Below, in pieces: positions 2,259-52,671 of a stretch of 52,671 nucleotides of DNA; position 1 is the stretch's first letter; the number at the start of each line of letters is the position of its first letter. Location: contig JBPOJJ010000004.1 in NCBI GenBank assembly GCA_052033715.1, forward strand, positions 1 to 52,671, given 5' to 3'. The notes under the pieces were generated by a model, which was not told the origin of the DNA, searched no databases, and was given only the letters and a program-made list of their open reading frames with translations. Source of the stretch: Patescibacteria group bacterium. Its GTDB lineage: Bacteria; Patescibacteriota; Minisyncoccia; Phycocordibacterales; CSBR16-119. The position numbers were made by a program, and so were the translations under genes.

Positions 2259-3114
2259 TTTAAATCCCTTAAAAGAAAAAAAGTTGTTGATCAAGGCTAA
2301 CGAAATTCGGGCTAGCATTATCGATATGCTCGAGGACGCCGGCTCAGGACACACAGCTGGGCCCTTGGATATGACCGACGTTTTCACGGCGTTTTATTTT
2401 CATATTCTCAATCACGACCCCAAAAATCCTGAATGGTCGGAGCGTGACAGACTCATCCTCTCAAACGGCCACATCGTGCCTGTCAGATACTCCACGATGG
2501 CGCATGCTGGATATTTTCCGCTCAAAGAACTCTCGACACTTAGAAAATTTGGCTCACGCCTCCAGGGCCACCCGGAGCGCGAGAAGTTGCCGGGGCTTGA
2601 AAATACTTCTGGGCCACTGGGTTCAGGAATTTCTCAGTCAGCCGGGTACGCCTACGCTGCCAGGATGGACGGCAAAAAATTCCGTACGTATTGTTTTATC
2701 TCAGACGGCGAACTCGATGCCGGAAATAGTTGGGAAGGCATTATGTTTGCTGGCGCTAATAAACTTTCGAATCTGACAGTGGTAATTGATCGCAACAATA
2801 TTCAAATAAACGGAATGACGGAAGATATTATGCCTCTCGAGCCATTAGCCGATAAATGGCGAGCGTTTAATTGGCATGTTTTGGAAATTGATGGGCACAA
2901 TATGGAAGCGATCATCGACGCTGTCGAGGAAGCCAAGGCGATCGTCGAGAAGCCGACAGTGATCATCGCTCACACTATTGCCGGTAAAGGCATCAAGGAA
3001 ATCGAATACGATTACAAATGGCATGGAACTCCGCCAAACAAAGAACAGGAACAGAAATGGTTGAAGGAATTGCGAACAATGAAGGGTAAAATAGAAGGAG
3101 GACATTTGGATTAG
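2251..3114 (+). CDS. Transketolase, N-terminal (TPP-binding) subunit
   Basis: GSGHTAG, DRLILSNGH, RLQGHP, SGPLGSG and SDGELDAG...DRNNIQ motifs. Confidence 0.95.
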   Translation: MSNLNPLKEKKLLIKANEIRASIIDMLEDAGSGHTAGPLDMTDVFTAFYFHILNHDPKNPEWSERDRLILSNGHIVPVRYSTMAHAGYFPLKELSTLRKFGSRLQGHPEREKLPGLENTSGPLGSGISQSAGYAYAARMDGKKFRTYCFISDGELDAGNSWEGIMFAGANKLSNLTVVIDRNNIQINGMTEDIMPLEPLADKWRAFNWHVLEIDGHNMEAIIDAVEEAKAIVEKPTVIIAHTIAGKGIKEIEYDYKWHGTPPNKEQEQKWLKELRTMKGKIEGGHLD

Positions 3115-51001: not shown

Positions 51002-51166
51002 ATGCGATCCAAGTTTCACCACCAGACAAGTGAGTCGGGAACCTCGGATGACCCAGAAAACTACGACCCAGATCGGGGTTGGGGTTGGGGTCTTCTGAAC
51101 GGCGGAGGCATCTTCCTCCTATTATGCCTAGCGGCCTATTTGTTCTACCGCGCCTACTCTGGCTAG
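51002..51166 (+). CDS. Small C-terminally anchored membrane protein, 54 aa
   Basis: Hand-translated MRSKFHHQTSESGTSDDPENYDPDRGWGWGLLNGGGIFLLLCLAAYLFYRAYSG; has its own promoter and terminator. Confidence 0.68.
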   Translation: MRSKFHHQTSESGTSDDPENYDPDRGWGWGLLNGGGIFLLLCLAAYLFYRAYSG

Positions 51167-51169
51167 GCC

Positions 51170-51212
51170 AAACGAGTGTTTTTCTTACCGGAGGCACTCG
51201 TTTTGATTTTTT
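51170..51212 (+). terminator. Intrinsic terminator
   Basis: AAACGAGTG...CACTCGTTT followed by a T-rich tail. Confidence 0.6.
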
Positions 51213-51222
51213 CCTCTTTTCG

Positions 51223-51256
51223 CTGCTTATAATTTACATATGTTTAAGATAGGCGT
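51223..51256. repeat. 34-bp palindromic repeat, copy 1 (downstream of the PaaX-like gene)
   Basis: ctgcttataatttacatatgtttaagataggcgt; 26/34 identical to copy 2. Confidence 0.7.
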
Positions 51257-51268
51257 CTCAGATCACTT

Positions 51269-51838
51269 CTAAATTTGAAAATGTTTCCGAAGGTCTTTGT
51301 CATTCTCCAAATGTTCCGCCACGATATACATCACTTCTTTTCCAAACTTAAAATACGATTTCATCATGATAATAATTTCCTCACAATCGTACGGATGAAT
51401 CCAAATACTTTTTTGGTATTGCACAAATCCAAGTCTTTTTAAATGATGCCGGAAAATATTTCGCAAAGGTGTTCTAGTATTTTTGATATCAAAACTTACA
51501 ATCCGCCATTTTTTGTCCCACTTTTTCGGTTTTTTAATCTGTAAATCGCCGAGCAAATATTTATCAATTTCTTTCTTACCTTTAGGTGTCAGTGTCGCAA
51601 ACTTTTGCCCATTTCTAGTAACAAAATAAATATAGCCTTGTTTTTGTAATAAAAAGATTTTCTTGTTTATTCTATAACGTAAATCCTGGGACCTTTTTCC
51701 AACACCAAAAATCTTTAACATCTGAAGGGCGTTAGGCGCAACCACAGCAACAGAAACAAGCCCCACCGCCATAATTGATTTTAGGGCTATTTCTTTATAA
51801 TCGATTCTTTTATTTCTTTTTATATACTCCTTACCCAC
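51269..51838 (-). CDS. PaaX-like transcriptional regulator with wHTH and Cas2-like domains
   Basis: LT.KG wing and KKWDKKWRIVSFDI...LKRLGFVQYQKSIWIHPY motif. GTG start 6 nt after TATAAT; ATG 51853 is an alternative. Confidence 0.85.
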   Translation of the reverse strand: MGKEYIKRNKRIDYKEIALKSIMAVGLVSVAVVAPNALQMLKIFGVGKRSQDLRYRINKKIFLLQKQGYIYFVTRNGQKFATLTPKGKKEIDKYLLGDLQIKKPKKWDKKWRIVSFDIKNTRTPLRNIFRHHLKRLGFVQYQKSIWIHPYDCEEIIIMMKSYFKFGKEVMYIVAEHLENDKDLRKHFQI

Positions 51839-51870
51839 GCTTAAATTATACATATGGTTACGATAAGCGT
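51837..51870. repeat. 34-bp palindromic repeat, copy 2 (overlaps the promoter and start of the PaaX-like gene)
   Basis: acgcttaaattatacatatggttacgataagcgt; outer arms ACGCTTA/TAAGCGT, centre CATATG. Confidence 0.7.
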
Positions 51871-51904
51871 AGCATTCCAATTATAAAAATAATGTGGAAA
51901 AGTC

Positions 51905-52671
51905 TTATAAACCGGATTTTTGGAGGTCTTCGATGAGACGCTTTTGTTCACGAGAAAGCGAGTCGGGGATTTCGACTTCGACAACGACGAGTAGATCGCC
52001 ATGTTGGAATCGGCCGGCTTGGATGCCCGCGCCTTTGACGCGGAGGATTTTGCCGGTGTTTATGCCTTTTGGAATTTTTATTTTGATTGGACCGTCGACT
52101 CCTTCGACATCATACATCGCGCCGAGGATGGCGTCGGTGAGTTTGACTCGCAAATTCGTGACAAGATGAATTCCTTCTTTGCGCAAAGATTTGTGCGATT
52201 CGACGTACATTTTGAGCAAGAGATCGCCTGGATGTCCTTCTTCGCCCGGCTCACCATAGCCATGGAGCTTCATCATCTGGCCGGATTCGATTCCGGCTGG
52301 GACTTTGATACTGACTTCTTTTTGACCCTTTTGGGCGCTATTTTCTGGGACTTTGATCGTCTTGTCCGTACCCTGGACCGACTCCTTGAAGCTTATATTG
52401 AGGGAGAGAACGATATCCCGACCCTTTCTGACCCTTCGCCCGAAACCTCCTCCAAAAGCCGAGAAAATGTCGTTTAAATCGAACTCCTGGCCTCCTTGGA
52501 AGCCCTCGAAGTTAAACCCGCCGAAATCAAATCCTCCAAAGCCTGCTCCTCCGCCCTGCCCACCAAACTGCGGACCGTTAGAGCCGAAGCGGTCATATTG
52601 GGCGCGTTTCTGATCGTCAGAAAGAACCTGGTAAGCCTCGTTCACTTCTTTGAATTTGGCTTCGTTGCCAG
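51905..52671 (-). CDS. dnaJ: DnaJ-family chaperone without a zinc finger (class B / CbpA-like), 5'-truncated by the window edge
   Basis: KFKEVNEAYQVLSD..KR..YD, G/F-rich linker, KVPAGIESG and GDLL motifs; no CxxCxGxG. Confidence 0.88.
   Translation of the reverse strand, partial: GNEAKFKEVNEAYQVLSDDQKRAQYDRFGSNGPQFGGQGGGAGFGGFDFGGFNFEGFQGGQEFDLNDIFSAFGGGFGRRVRKGRDIVLSLNISFKESVQGTDKTIKVPENSAQKGQKEVSIKVPAGIESGQMMKLHGYGEPGEEGHPGDLLLKMYVESHKSLRKEGIHLVTNLRVKLTDAILGAMYDVEGVDGPIKIKIPKGINTGKILRVKGAGIQAGRFQHGDLLVVVEVEIPDSLSREQKRLIEDLQKSGL

What the first reader, a model, noticed from the sequence alone, without database searches (positions are those of the whole stretch)
51223..51870. PaaX/Cas2-like regulator gene bracketed by two 34-bp palindromic direct repeats
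Seen: 51223-51256 and 51837-51870 align without gaps at 26/34 nt. Both are centred exactly on CATATG and have symmetric outer arms (perfect ACGCTTA/TAAGCGT in the upstream copy). One copy covers the -10 box and likely GTG start, and the other sits 12 nt past the stop. Known: PaaX-family repressors bind palindromic operators, and the central domain has a Cas2-like ferredoxin fold. Inference: this is either a paired-operator autoregulation or looping unit, or a self-contained mobile or excisable module. The 34-bp length matches tyrosine-recombinase sites such as loxP and FRT. The repeat-gene-repeat geometry could explain how such genes spread as paralogs in CPR genomes.
Basis: partly seen in the sequence, partly recalled or inferred. 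Interest (0 to 1): 0.75.

Follow-up and report, generated by a model that had tools for sequence, protein, structure and literature searches.

The report
Mini-PaaX repressor flanked by own operators
A small DNA-binding protein gene of an ultra-small (Patescibacteria) bacterium sits between two copies of a palindrome that the protein most likely binds to control itself, and this layout recurs, with a private palindrome for each gene copy, across a large protein family for which I found no publication.

Summary
51223-51256 and 51837-51870 match at 26/34, both centred on CATATG, and they occur nowhere else in the 606-kb genome. No shuffle reached this score.

The gene between them (minus strand, 51269-51838) encodes a "mini-PaaX": a PaaX-type winged helix plus a Cas2-fold PaaX_M domain, with no PaaX_C domain.

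The layout is family-wide. In about 80% of 157 homologous loci the gene's own two flanks share a roughly 38-bp palindrome. Arms are locus-specific and the core is shared (CGRYCG, CTATAG, rarely CATATG). One 700-kb genome has ten paralogs, each with its own pair.

Constraint falls in two blocks one helical turn apart. Mismatches show no G:U excess. Outer arms covary with winged-helix residues, and the core covaries with Cas2-domain residues 120 and 143. The upstream copy overlaps a -10 box placed for a leaderless start.

Best reading: paired cognate operators of an autorepressor. The job of the downstream copy is not settled.

I found no support for lox-like or mobile behaviour: no recombinase, no solo sites, no relatives on viral contigs, and vertical inheritance within the genus.

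A paralog with a single operator faces grpE-dnaK-dnaJ, the operon that this cassette terminates.

The parts
51835..51872 (.). Upstream operator-like palindrome. Dyad between 51853 and 51854, core CATATG 51851-51856, outer blocks ACGCTTA (51837-51843) and TAAGCGT (51864-51870).
   Evidence: Family profile of constraint out to +/-18-19 from the dyad.
51221..51258 (.). Downstream operator-like palindrome. Dyad between 51239 and 51240, core CATATG 51237-51242. Outer blocks, read outward from the dyad, are TAAGCAG and TAGGCGT. It ends 12 nt past the stop codon.
   Evidence: Orthologous copies in three genus relatives.
51269..51838 (-). Mini-PaaX gene: 189 aa from GTG 51838-51836, stop TAG 51271-51269. 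A gene caller used the ATG at 51853-51851, giving 194 aa. Residues ~14-95 form a PaaX-type winged helix. Residues ~105-187 form the Cas2-fold PaaX_M domain. There is no PaaX_C.
   Evidence: Pfam PaaX_M 65 bits against a cut-off of 24. AlphaFold2 model with pLDDT 80. Foldseek best hits PaaX 8a39, Rv0674 3kfw, then Cas2/VapD. The 194-aa call is P0001.
51845..51850 (-). -10-like TATAAT inside the upstream palindrome, 6 nt before the GTG. This implies a leaderless or near-leaderless mRNA.
   Evidence: Sequence. In 29 of 80 homologous loci a -10-like hexamer lies 5-8 nt before the start codon, with the mode at 6. The simple promoter scan found no full -35/-10 pair here.
51905..52671 (-). 3' part of dnaJ, the last gene of grpE-dnaK-dnaJ. 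It is co-directional with the mini-PaaX gene and ends 32 nt before the 38-bp upstream operator (51835-51872).
51170..51203 (+). Terminator hairpin with a T-run on the plus strand, serving the convergent cysS and small-ORF unit. It lies just beyond the downstream palindrome and marks the cassette's outer boundary.

Best explanation
The two repeats are the two cognate operators of the protein encoded between them.

The protein is a mini-PaaX: a PaaX-type winged helix plus a Cas2-fold middle domain, without the ligand-binding PaaX_C domain. I infer that it binds as a symmetric dimer to a duplex site of about 38 bp. The two winged helices would read the outer blocks, here TAAGCGT at positions 11-17 from the dyad. 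The paired Cas2-fold domains would sit over the dyad and read the core, here CATATG.

The upstream site covers the -10 box and the leaderless GTG start, so occupancy would shut off the gene (negative autoregulation). It would also block read-through from dnaJ.

The downstream site, 614 bp away, would be bound by the same protein. Its job is inferred, not shown. It most likely cooperates with the upstream site (a loop between two bound dimers) or acts as a roadblock or insulator that closes the transcription unit.

Operator-gene-operator is inherited as one self-contained unit. The family has multiplied in this class (Paceibacteria, going by the names on the MAG records), and each paralog has evolved a private site.

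Shown: the repeat pair, its family-wide recurrence, the two-block constraint, the protein-site covariation and the promoter overlap.

Inferred: binding itself, the dimer geometry, repression, and the role of the downstream copy.
For: 1. Family-wide pairing. In 79 homologous loci the gene's own upstream and downstream flanks share 22 or more of 30 nt in 66 cases and 24 or more in 55 cases. Mismatched flank pairs reach these levels in 18/469 and 3/469. A second sample drawn across the class gave 62/78.

2. Paralogs have private pairs. The C6 paralog of this genome has its own pair, GTAACATT...ACGGTCGT...AATGTTAC. All ten paralogs of genome G041 have private pairs.

3. Shape of the constraint. 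Both palindromy and up/down identity are 0.8-1.0 at positions 2-6 and 11-18 from the dyad, dip to 0.64-0.78 at positions 7-10, and collapse beyond 19. That is two contact blocks one helical turn apart.

4. No RNA wobble signature. Arm mismatches are G:T 55, A:C 38 and other 171.

5. Two-fold symmetric degeneracy at the dyad. With E at residue 120, the central dinucleotide is purine-pyrimidine in 91/94 upstream and 91/94 downstream copies.

6. Covariation.
   - Outer-arm similarity tracks winged-helix similarity given Cas2-domain similarity (partial r 0.24, 0 of 2000 permutations as high). The converse does not hold (r 0.04, p 0.2).
   - The top mutual-information pairs are helix and wing residues 49, 53, 55, 61, 70, 72 and 74 with site positions 16-18, and Cas2-domain residues 120, 123, 127, 140 and 143 with core positions 1, 2, 4 and 6.
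   - Residue 143: N goes with C at position 2 in 30/34, and D goes with A in 22/26.
   - Residue 120: E goes with canonical cores in 92/94. Non-E, including this protein's N120, goes with odd cores such as CATATG in 16/17. The non-E rows are not one clade (AU p 9e-10).

7. Promoter overlap. The upstream dyads cluster at about -17, -36 and -46 from the start. A -10-like box lies 5-8 nt before the start in 29/80 loci. Here the arrangement is TATAAT-6 nt-GTG, inside the palindrome.

8. Known relative. The E. coli PaaX binding sequence is reported as TGATTC(N27)GAATCA, 39 bp, and PaaX represses its own promoter (PMC9493321).

9. A sister paralog with a host target. The C3-type gene faces grpE-dnaK in 17 genomes, and the shared promoter region holds one conserved palindrome-like element (11 or more of 14 pairs in 11 of the 17).

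10. Each palindrome occurs only beside its own gene in this genome.
Against: - No binding, footprint or expression data exist.
- In the genus orthologs the outer arms can differ between the two copies of one locus while each copy stays palindromic. G004 has GGTGGT..ACCACC upstream and GCTTAT..ATAAGC downstream. G001 has GGTGAT..ATCACC and ACGTA..TACGT. This is awkward for one protein with one specificity. It would fit selection for, or a mechanism that makes, intrastrand pairing.
- In PaaX itself the Cas2-like domain is described as a dimerisation motif, not as a DNA reader.
- The phylogenetically independent-pair tests of the residue-base links are underpowered: 3-4 well-supported pairs, none contrary. 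The residue groups were also chosen after looking at the data.
- No selective reason is established for a downstream operator. It is not a general intrinsic terminator. In this window it has no co-directional neighbour to regulate.
- The simple promoter scan finds no -35 element here.
Confidence: 0.62

Rival explanations
1. Mobile or excisable cassette. The palindromes are the ends or recombination sites of a self-contained element. The Cas2-fold domain keeps Cas2's Asp (D117), Arg and Phe positions, and would nick or cut at the dyad so that the unit is excised, inserted or shuffled.
For: - The cassette is AT-rich (GC 0.32-0.35) against flanks of 0.45-0.55.
- Neighbours of the 80 homologous loci are unrelated housekeeping genes in mixed orientation.
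- The dnaJ/cysS gap is a variable hotspot.
- G004 and G005 keep a decayed second dnaJ 3' end just after the downstream palindrome. This implies an old insertion into dnaJ with replacement of its end.
- Genome G041 has third copies bracketing extra genes, and solo palindromes side by side.
- D117, R126, R130 and F138 align with residues I recall as needed for Cas2 nuclease activity. D117, R126 and F138 are invariant in the family and R130 is nearly so. The Cas2 residue list is from my own knowledge.
- Arm types appear to have been exchanged between the two copies within the genus.
Against: - There is no recombinase or transposase.
- There are no target-site duplications and no near-identical copies within a genome. 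The ten G041 paralogs are all diverged and each has different arms.
- There are only two copies here, and no solo site in genus genomes that lack the cassette.
- No relatives were found on viral contigs.
- Cassette and dnaJ have diverged to a similar degree across the genus, so inheritance is vertical.
- The one solo site that could be matched (C, beside L117) keeps its core and outer blocks intact and differs only in the unconstrained linker. It matches the operator of the living paralog L121, so it looks like a working remote operator rather than a scar.
Confidence: 0.12
2. Structural hairpins or cruciforms. The palindromes are selected for intrastrand pairing in RNA (5' and 3' stem-loops that stabilise or terminate the mRNA) or in single-stranded DNA, not as duplex protein sites.
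For: - Many copies are perfect palindromes of 36-48 nt.
- In genus orthologs each copy keeps its own palindromy even when the two copies differ.
- Some downstream copies are followed by T-runs: 10/57, against 4/58 upstream copies.
Against: - Mismatches show no G:U excess (55 G:T, 38 A:C, 171 other).
- Pairing is relaxed in the middle of the would-be stem (positions 7-10) but strict at the would-be loop (positions 2-3 at 95-98%). The two central bases obey a two-fold symmetric R|Y rule.
- Many upstream copies lie upstream of the -10 box and so are not in the gene's own transcript.
- The two copies of a locus match each other, which a structure alone does not need.
- Site letters covary with protein residues.
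Confidence: 0.08
3. The downstream copy is not part of a pair. It is simply the operator of a neighbouring promoter, giving an ordinary small regulon of a regulator plus an adjacent target.
For: - Some downstream copies are followed by -10-like boxes and a co-directional gene.
- In L015/L117 a cargo gene follows the second copy.
- The C3-type paralog clearly serves a neighbouring operon.
Against: - Downstream neighbours are unrelated to each other and are on the opposite strand in 30 of 75 loci.
- In this window the next genes are convergent and lie behind a terminator.
- The downstream copy is nevertheless conserved in about 80% of loci.
Confidence: 0.05
4. Chance similarity of two AT-rich flanks.
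For: The region is AT-rich and the local copies are imperfect (26/34).
Against: Shuffles and genomic controls do not reach 26/34. Three genus orthologs have the same CATATG-centred pairs. The pattern is family-wide.
Confidence: 0.01

Closest known systems
PaaX, the phenylacetyl-CoA-responsive repressor of the paa operons (E. coli W, PDB 8a39; TIGR02277; Pfam PaaX, PaaX_M, PaaX_C). Also Rv0674 (3kfw) and the Jannaschia homolog (3l09).
   Same: - N-terminal winged helix followed by the Cas2-like PaaX_M domain. This is the best sequence match (profile E 0.0015) and the best fold match.
- It represses its own promoter.
- Its binding sequence is two inverted hexamers spanning 39 bp, TGATTC(N27)GAATCA (PMC9493321). 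The span here is about 38 bp.
   Different: - There is no PaaX_C domain, so no known ligand.
- The protein is about 190 aa, against about 310.
- TIGR02277 scores 28 bits against a cut-off of 264.
- The Cas2-type Asp (D117) is invariant here but absent from the aligned E. coli PaaX sequence.
- The site is palindromic throughout, with a conserved core at the dyad that covaries with the Cas2-fold domain.
- A second copy lies behind the gene.
- There are up to ten or more paralogs per genome, each with a private site.
- No paa genes are involved.
Cas2 (CRISPR adaptation protein) and VapD toxins
   Same: - Ferredoxin-like fold of the C-terminal domain (Foldseek probability 0.9-1.0, target TM-score 0.45-0.67).
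- The motif FD(I/V)..E...R...R..L...GF..LQ.SVW parallels Cas2's YD(V/I)...R...L...G..vQ.SVF (own knowledge).
- Databases often name these proteins 'Cas2'.
   Different: - Scores are below the Cas2 family cut-offs: PF09827 16.2 against 23.8, and TIGR01573 16.4 against 24.5.
- The domain is fused to a winged helix.
- No cas1 or CRISPR array is adjacent.
- The 'repeats' are two full palindromes around a 570-bp gene, not an array of repeats and spacers.
HrcA/CIRCE control of grpE-dnaK-dnaJ
   Same: The C3-type paralog sits beside grpE-dnaK-dnaJ. A conserved palindrome overlaps the promoter region. The genome has no HrcA match.
   Different: The protein fold is unrelated. This applies to the sister paralog, not to the focal cassette, which lies at the 3' end of the same operon. 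The regulatory link is inferred from synteny only.
Site-specific recombination sites (loxP/FRT, dif and pdif modules, integron attC cassettes)
   Same: Genes are bracketed by palindromes of about 30-40 bp that have a short central region.
   Different: No tyrosine or serine recombinase is encoded nearby. The core is symmetric. Arms are locus-specific rather than shared genome-wide. There are no solo sites and no arrays in this genome.
REP/REPIN elements with RAYT genes
   Same: A gene is flanked by copies of a palindrome that its product is thought to recognise. Earlier notes of this scan report dispersed copies in other genomes (not checked here).
   Different: This genome has exactly two copies and no dispersal. 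The protein is not an HUH/Y1 transposase.

Membership tests
PaaX family (TIGR02277 / COG3327) | PaaX_M (Cas2-like middle) domain | tested here: met
   PF20803: 65 bits against a cut-off of 24, residues 119-195
PaaX family (TIGR02277 / COG3327) | N-terminal PaaX-type winged helix | tested here: inconclusive
   No Pfam hit to the PaaX N-terminal model at E<=1. However, the profile aligns to PaaX residues 56-143, which include the wing. The AlphaFold2 model shows three helices plus a beta-hairpin, with helices 1-2 at low confidence.
PaaX family (TIGR02277 / COG3327) | C-terminal PaaX_C ligand-binding domain and full-length equivalog score | tested here: not met
   The protein ends after the PaaX_M domain. 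TIGR02277 scores 28 bits against a cut-off of 264.55.
PaaX family (TIGR02277 / COG3327) | Autorepression through a wide inverted-repeat operator (about 39 bp) | tested here: inconclusive
   The geometry matches: a 38-bp dyad site overlapping the -10 box and the start. Binding and repression were not tested.
Cas2 (PF09827 / TIGR01573) | Family score over the curated cut-off | tested here: not met
   16.2 against 23.8 bits, and 16.4 against 24.5 bits
Cas2 (PF09827 / TIGR01573) | Cas2 ferredoxin-like fold with a conserved Asp at the end of strand 1 | tested here: met
   Foldseek hits to Cas2 and VapD chains. D117 is invariant in 77 sequences.
Cas2 (PF09827 / TIGR01573) | Association with cas1 and a CRISPR array | tested here: not met
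   The neighbours are dnaJ and cysS. The flanks of 80 homologous loci are unrelated housekeeping genes.
Tyrosine-recombinase sites (loxP/FRT type) | A cognate recombinase, and inverted arms around an asymmetric spacer that gives the site a direction | tested here: not met
   No recombinase ORF lies in the cassette or its flanks. The core CATATG is symmetric. In the family the central pair is R|Y in either order.
Tyrosine-recombinase sites (loxP/FRT type) | Excision products: empty sites with one copy, or circle junctions | tested here: not met
   No solo CATATG-type site in 7 genomes of the genus.
REP/RAYT-like dispersed palindromes | Many dispersed copies of the palindrome in the genome | tested here: not met
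   Only the two flanking copies reach 24/34 or more. A generic scan finds only the paralogs' own sites and two GC-rich terminators.
Intrinsic terminator | GC-rich stem followed by a T-run | tested here: not met
   No T-run follows the local downstream copy. In the family 10/57 downstream copies and 4/58 upstream copies have 6 or more T in 8 nt.

The most novel reading that the evidence does not exclude
The Cas2 fold is used here as a sequence-reading module, and possibly a catalytic one, that sits on the dyad of a palindromic repeat.

Residues next to the invariant Cas2-type Asp (D117, with position 120) and in the LQxSVW strand (position 143) would specify the central base pairs. The protein might also nick or cut there.

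If so, palindrome-gene-palindrome units could be excised, converted or shuffled. That would account for the arm exchange between copies, the third copies bracketing cargo genes, the solo sites, and the old insertion into dnaJ. It would also provide a living example of a Cas2-like protein that recognises repeats on its own, which bears on where Cas2 and repeat recognition in CRISPR adaptation came from.
Probability: 0.12. Interest if true: 0.9.

Novelty: new variant of a known kind. Interest (0 to 1): 0.6.

Why it matters
Patescibacteria have tiny genomes and few recognisable regulators. Yet 60% of 301 sampled genomes of this class carry this family, with 1 to at least 10 copies per 0.5-1 Mb. 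It is annotated as "hypothetical", "PaaX" or, wrongly, "Cas2".

If the reading is right, three things follow.

1. The family is a natural set of dozens of orthogonal repressor-operator pairs with a partly readable code: the winged helix reads the outer block and the Cas2-fold domain reads the core. That would interest people working on transcription-factor specificity and on synthetic biology.
2. It shows a DNA-reading use of the Cas2 fold.
3. One branch probably controls the grpE-dnaK-dnaJ operon in organisms that lack HrcA. That would be a concrete physiological role that can be tested.

The unexplained need for a second site behind the gene is a small open puzzle in gene regulation.

I found no paper on this in six full-text searches.

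Tried and rejected
- Lox-like or integron-like reading: rejected. No recombinase, a symmetric core, private arms and no solo sites.
- RNA hairpin: the G:U test was negative.
- Downstream copy as an intrinsic terminator: the T-run excess is not significant.
- N-terminal hydrophobic stretch as a membrane anchor: rejected. It aligns with helices 1-2 of the PaaX winged helix by eye (sequence from my own knowledge), and the model gives two short helices there at low confidence.
- A conserved downstream target gene: none.
- Viral carriage: none.
- First association scan: unreliable, because undefined z-scores broke the sort. Redone.
- Sign tests on phylogenetically independent pairs for residue 143 with core position 2 and for residue 120 with core type: underpowered, with only 3-4 well-supported pairs and none contrary.
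- Orientation bias of the asymmetric core in downstream copies: 21 GT to 4 AC in the first set, weakening to 24:11 (p 0.04) in the larger set. Left unexplained.
- Correction to my notebook entry 2: the null gives 22 or more of 30 in 18 of 469 pairs, not 7.
Full report
**1. The observation**

The window is a whole contig (C11) of a 606-kb, 12-contig Patescibacteria genome. They match at 26/34 without gaps, both are centred on CATATG, and the gene-proximal upstream copy has perfect ACGCTTA/TAAGCGT outer arms.

The gene lies on the minus strand, 51269-51880 as an open frame.

- The upstream copy contains TATAAT (51850-51845) and overlaps the GTG at 51838-51836.
- The stop is TAG at 51271-51269, and the downstream copy ends 12 nt beyond it.

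The pair is not chance.

- The consensus occurs twice in the window and never in 100 shuffles.
- The next best match in the genome is 23/34.
- 2000 shuffles of the flanks never exceeded 24/34.
- Only 2 of 3000 AT-rich genomic segment pairs at the same spacing reached 26 or more.

The cassette is AT-rich, with GC 0.32-0.35 against 0.45-0.55 in the flanks.

**2. The protein**

- Pfam finds PaaX_M at 65 bits against a cut-off of 24. Cas2 scores below its cut-off.
- TIGR02277 (PaaX) scores 28 bits against a cut-off of 264.
- A 77-sequence profile finds E. coli PaaX (8a39) as the best solved relative. The alignment covers the wing of the winged helix and the first half of the Cas2-like domain.
- An AlphaFold2 model has mean pLDDT 80, and over 90 from residue 60 onward. 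It shows helix-helix-helix-hairpin, then a beta-alpha-beta-beta-alpha-beta domain.
- Foldseek ranks PaaX 8a39 first, Rv0674 second, then many Cas2 and VapD chains for the C-terminal domain.

So the protein is a "mini-PaaX": the DNA-binding domain and the middle domain, without the ligand-binding PaaX_C domain.

Public sources call its relatives "PaaX", "Cas2" or "hypothetical".

The residues invariant across the family are W107, D108, D117, R126, F138, S144, W146 and P149. They lie in the Cas2-fold domain, and D117 is in the register of Cas2's catalytic Asp (the register is from my own knowledge of Cas2).

**3. The layout is a property of the family**

This genome has three paralogs.

- The C6 paralog is bracketed by its own, different pair: GTAACATTTAAGTAGACGGTCGTCCACTAAAATGTTAC and GTAACATTTATTCTAACGGTCGTAGATAAGAATGTTAC. 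Neither is found anywhere else in the genome.
- The C3 paralog has one palindrome, upstream.

A scan of species-representative genomes found at least 545 relatives, and I kept 80 loci. In 79 of them I compared the gene's own upstream flank with its own downstream flank.

| Best 30-nt match | Own flanks (n=79) | Mismatched flank pairs (n=469) |
|---|---|---|
| 22 or more | 66 | 18 |
| 24 or more | 55 | 3 |

A second sample, drawn evenly over the class, gave 62 of 78 at 22 or more.

The repeats are palindromes of about 36-40 bp.

- The arms are locus-specific.
- The core is shared: mostly CGRYCG or CTATAG, rarely CATATG, CGTACG or CCATGG.

Genome G041 (700 kb) has ten paralogs, each with a private pair. 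Across the class, 182 of 301 genomes (142 of 221 genera) carry the family, with 1 to at least 10 copies each.

**4. What kind of element the palindrome is**

*Shape of the constraint.* Over 58 non-redundant loci, both palindromy and identity between the two copies behave the same way.

- They are high at positions 2-6 and 11-18 from the dyad.
- They dip at positions 7-10.
- They fall to background beyond 19-20.

That is a 38-bp site with two constrained blocks one helical turn apart. This is expected for a protein contacting one face of duplex DNA. It is odd for a hairpin, whose stem should pair throughout and whose loop should be free.

*Mismatches.* Mismatches in the arms are G:T 55, A:C 38 and other 171. 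These are the proportions random mismatches would give, so RNA wobble pairs have not been favoured.

*The central pair.* The two central bases obey a two-fold symmetric rule. With E at residue 120, the central pair is purine-pyrimidine in 91 of 94 upstream copies and in 91 of 94 downstream copies.

*Position relative to the promoter.* Upstream dyads cluster near -17, -36 and -46 from the start codon. A -10-like hexamer lies 5-8 nt before the start in 29 of 80 loci, with the mode at 6 nt. Many of these genes are therefore leaderless, and the palindrome overlaps the -10 or the -35. In this window the arrangement is TATAAT, 6 nt, GTG, all inside the palindrome. Where the dyad is at -46, the palindrome lies upstream of the transcription start and cannot be part of the gene's own mRNA.

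**5. Protein and site change together**

*Whole-region comparison.*

- Similarity of the outer arms tracks similarity of the winged-helix region after controlling for the Cas2-fold region. Partial Mantel r is 0.24, and 0 of 2000 permutations were as high.
- The converse does not hold (r 0.04, p 0.2).

*Residue-by-position scan.*

- Helix and wing residues 49, 53, 55, 61, 70, 72 and 74 pair with site positions 16-18.
- Cas2-fold residues 120, 123, 127, 140 and 143 pair with core positions 1, 2, 4 and 6.

*Two residues in 111 loci.*

| Residue | State | Site feature | Count |
|---|---|---|---|
| 143 (x in LQxSVW) | N | C at core position 2 (CG-type core) | 30 of 34 |
| 143 | D | A at core position 2 (CTATAG) | 22 of 26 |
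| 120 (DIxE) | E | canonical core | 92 of 94 |
| 120 | not E | unusual core | 16 of 17 |

The 17 proteins without E120 do not form one clade (AU test p 9e-10; 8 changes on the tree). The focal protein has N120 and K143 and the rare CATATG core, which fits this pattern.

*Caveats.*

- The residue groups were named after seeing the data.
- Sign tests on phylogenetically independent pairs have only 3-4 well-supported pairs. None goes the wrong way.
- An earlier scan of mine was faulty and should be ignored.

**6. How it most likely works**

The E. coli PaaX binding sequence is given as TGATTC(N27)GAATCA, a 39-bp span, and PaaX represses its own promoter (PMC9493321).

By analogy I propose a symmetric dimer on a 38-bp duplex site. 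The winged helices would lie on the outer blocks and the paired Cas2-fold domains over the dyad. Occupancy of the upstream site would block RNA polymerase at the leaderless promoter, and here it would also block read-through from dnaJ.

The downstream site would be bound by the same protein. Its job is not established.

- It is not a general intrinsic terminator.
- It does not serve a conserved neighbour. Neighbours are unrelated, and the downstream gene is on the other strand in 30 of 75 loci.
- Here it faces convergent genes behind a terminator.

Looping between two bound dimers, or a roadblock or insulator at the end of the unit, are the two readings I consider most likely. Both are inference.

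**7. Mobility**

*Points in favour of a horizontally acquired unit.*

- The low GC content.
- The variable content of the dnaJ/cysS gap among relatives.
- A decayed second dnaJ 3' end just after the downstream palindrome in G004 (GKIEIPESLSREQKKLVKEV*) and in G005 (SEISDSLSKEQKKLIE).
- Apparent exchange of arm types between the two copies within the genus. G004 has GGTGGT upstream and GCTTAT downstream. This genome has GCTTAT at both. G005 has GGTGAT at both.
- Third copies bracketing cargo genes, and adjacent solo palindromes, in G041.

*Points against an active mobile or lox-like element.*

- No recombinase is encoded.
- The core is symmetric.
- This genome has no further copies.
- Genus genomes that lack the cassette have no solo CATATG-type site.
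- No relatives were found on viral contigs.
- Paralogs within a genome are never near-identical.
- The cassette's divergence is similar to that of dnaJ across the genus.
- The one solo site I could match (C, beside L117) differs from the operators of the living paralog L121 only in the unconstrained linker. It looks like a working remote operator.

The read test for excision junctions could not be run.

**8. Context found on the way**

The end of contig C11 and the start of contig C3 both encode the dnaJ stretch GNEAKFKE. The locus therefore reads:

- cysS and a small ORF, running towards the cassette
- the focal cassette, then dnaJ, dnaK and grpE, all on the opposite strand
- the C3-type mini-PaaX, diverging from grpE

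The focal cassette thus sits at the 3' end of the chaperone operon.

The C3-type paralog is divergent from grpE-dnaK in all 17 loci examined from the taxonomic family (54-84% identity to the C3 protein). The shared intergenic region holds one conserved palindrome-like element, TTGACAAGTTTTTCACGNNCGTGGAAAACTTG, which overlaps the -35 regions. My palindrome filter (11 or more of 14 pairs) passed it in 11 of the 17. The sequence is visibly conserved in the rest.

The genome has no HrcA match. That paralog is therefore a good candidate for the chaperone-operon repressor. This independently supports the view that the family consists of operator-binding repressors.

**9. Comparison with what is known, and novelty**

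The protein is PaaX-like in its first two domains. It fails PaaX membership on the C-terminal domain and on the equivalog score. It fails Cas2 membership on score and on genomic context.

Four features were absent from the papers I could search:

- the self-bracketing operator-gene-operator unit
- the private sites of paralogs
- the covariation of the Cas2-fold domain with the dyad
- the family's abundance in the class

Earlier AI notes of this scan reach the same reading in other genomes. I treated them as leads only. One of them prompted the residue-core test, which I ran independently.

I rate this a new variant of a known kind. Confidence in the operator reading is about 0.6. Interest is 0.6.

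Noticed in passing
L002:1157-1249 (G000 contig C3, about 2982-3074); relatives L205-L220: A third paralog (172 aa, shorter N-terminus) is transcribed divergently from grpE-dnaK. This arrangement holds in all 17 loci examined from the taxonomic family. The shared promoter region has one conserved palindrome-like element, TTGACAAGTTTTTCACGNNCGTGGAAAACTTG, overlapping the -35 regions (11 or more of 14 pairs in 11 of the 17). There is no downstream copy. The genome has no HrcA match. It is a candidate chaperone-operon repressor.
   Followed up: partly
window 52645-52671 and the start of contig C3: The end of contig C11 and the start of contig C3 both encode the dnaJ stretch GNEAKFKE, in the same orientation, with 4 differences in 27 nt. 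The contigs are therefore neighbours, and the break is probably due to strain variation. The focal cassette then lies at the 3' end of grpE-dnaK-dnaJ.
   Followed up: partly
L004:2100-2170 (G004); L095 (G005), just after the downstream palindrome: A decayed second copy of the dnaJ 3' end follows the cassette: GKIEIPESLSREQKKLVKEV* in G004 and SEISDSLSKEQKKLIE in G005. The cassette seems to have entered inside the dnaJ 3' end long ago, together with a replacement end.
   Followed up: partly
L084-L099 (the gap between dnaJ and cysS in relatives): The convergent dnaJ/cysS gap is a variable spot. Four of seven genomes of the genus hold the mini-PaaX cassette. The others, and neighbouring genera, hold unrelated genes: a cold-shock-like gene, a membrane ion-channel-like gene, a nucleotidyltransferase-like gene and unknowns. 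These labels are from reading the translations only.
   Followed up: partly
L015:2113-3278 (the same region as L117), and L116:590-2067, genome G041: In a genome with ten paralogs, two cassettes have a third copy of their palindrome, which brackets an extra gene with no Pfam match. Next to one of them lie two solo palindromes, B and C. C matches the operator pair of another paralog (L121) except in the unconstrained linker. No partner was found for B.
   Followed up: partly
G000 contig C6:20414-21089: The second paralog of this genome has its own 38-bp palindrome pair, with GTAACATT/AATGTTAC arms and an ACGGTCGT core. Its downstream copy overlaps the stop codon.
   Followed up: yes
family-wide (111 loci): Where the central pair is asymmetric, downstream copies read GT more often than AC on the gene's sense strand (24:11, p 0.04). 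The first set gave 21:4. Upstream copies show no bias (17:16). This is unexplained.
   Followed up: partly
window 51002-51166 (+): A 54-aa ORF with a hydrophobic C-terminal stretch lies between cysS and the cassette and is followed by the terminator at 51170-51203. It has no significant family match.
   Followed up: no
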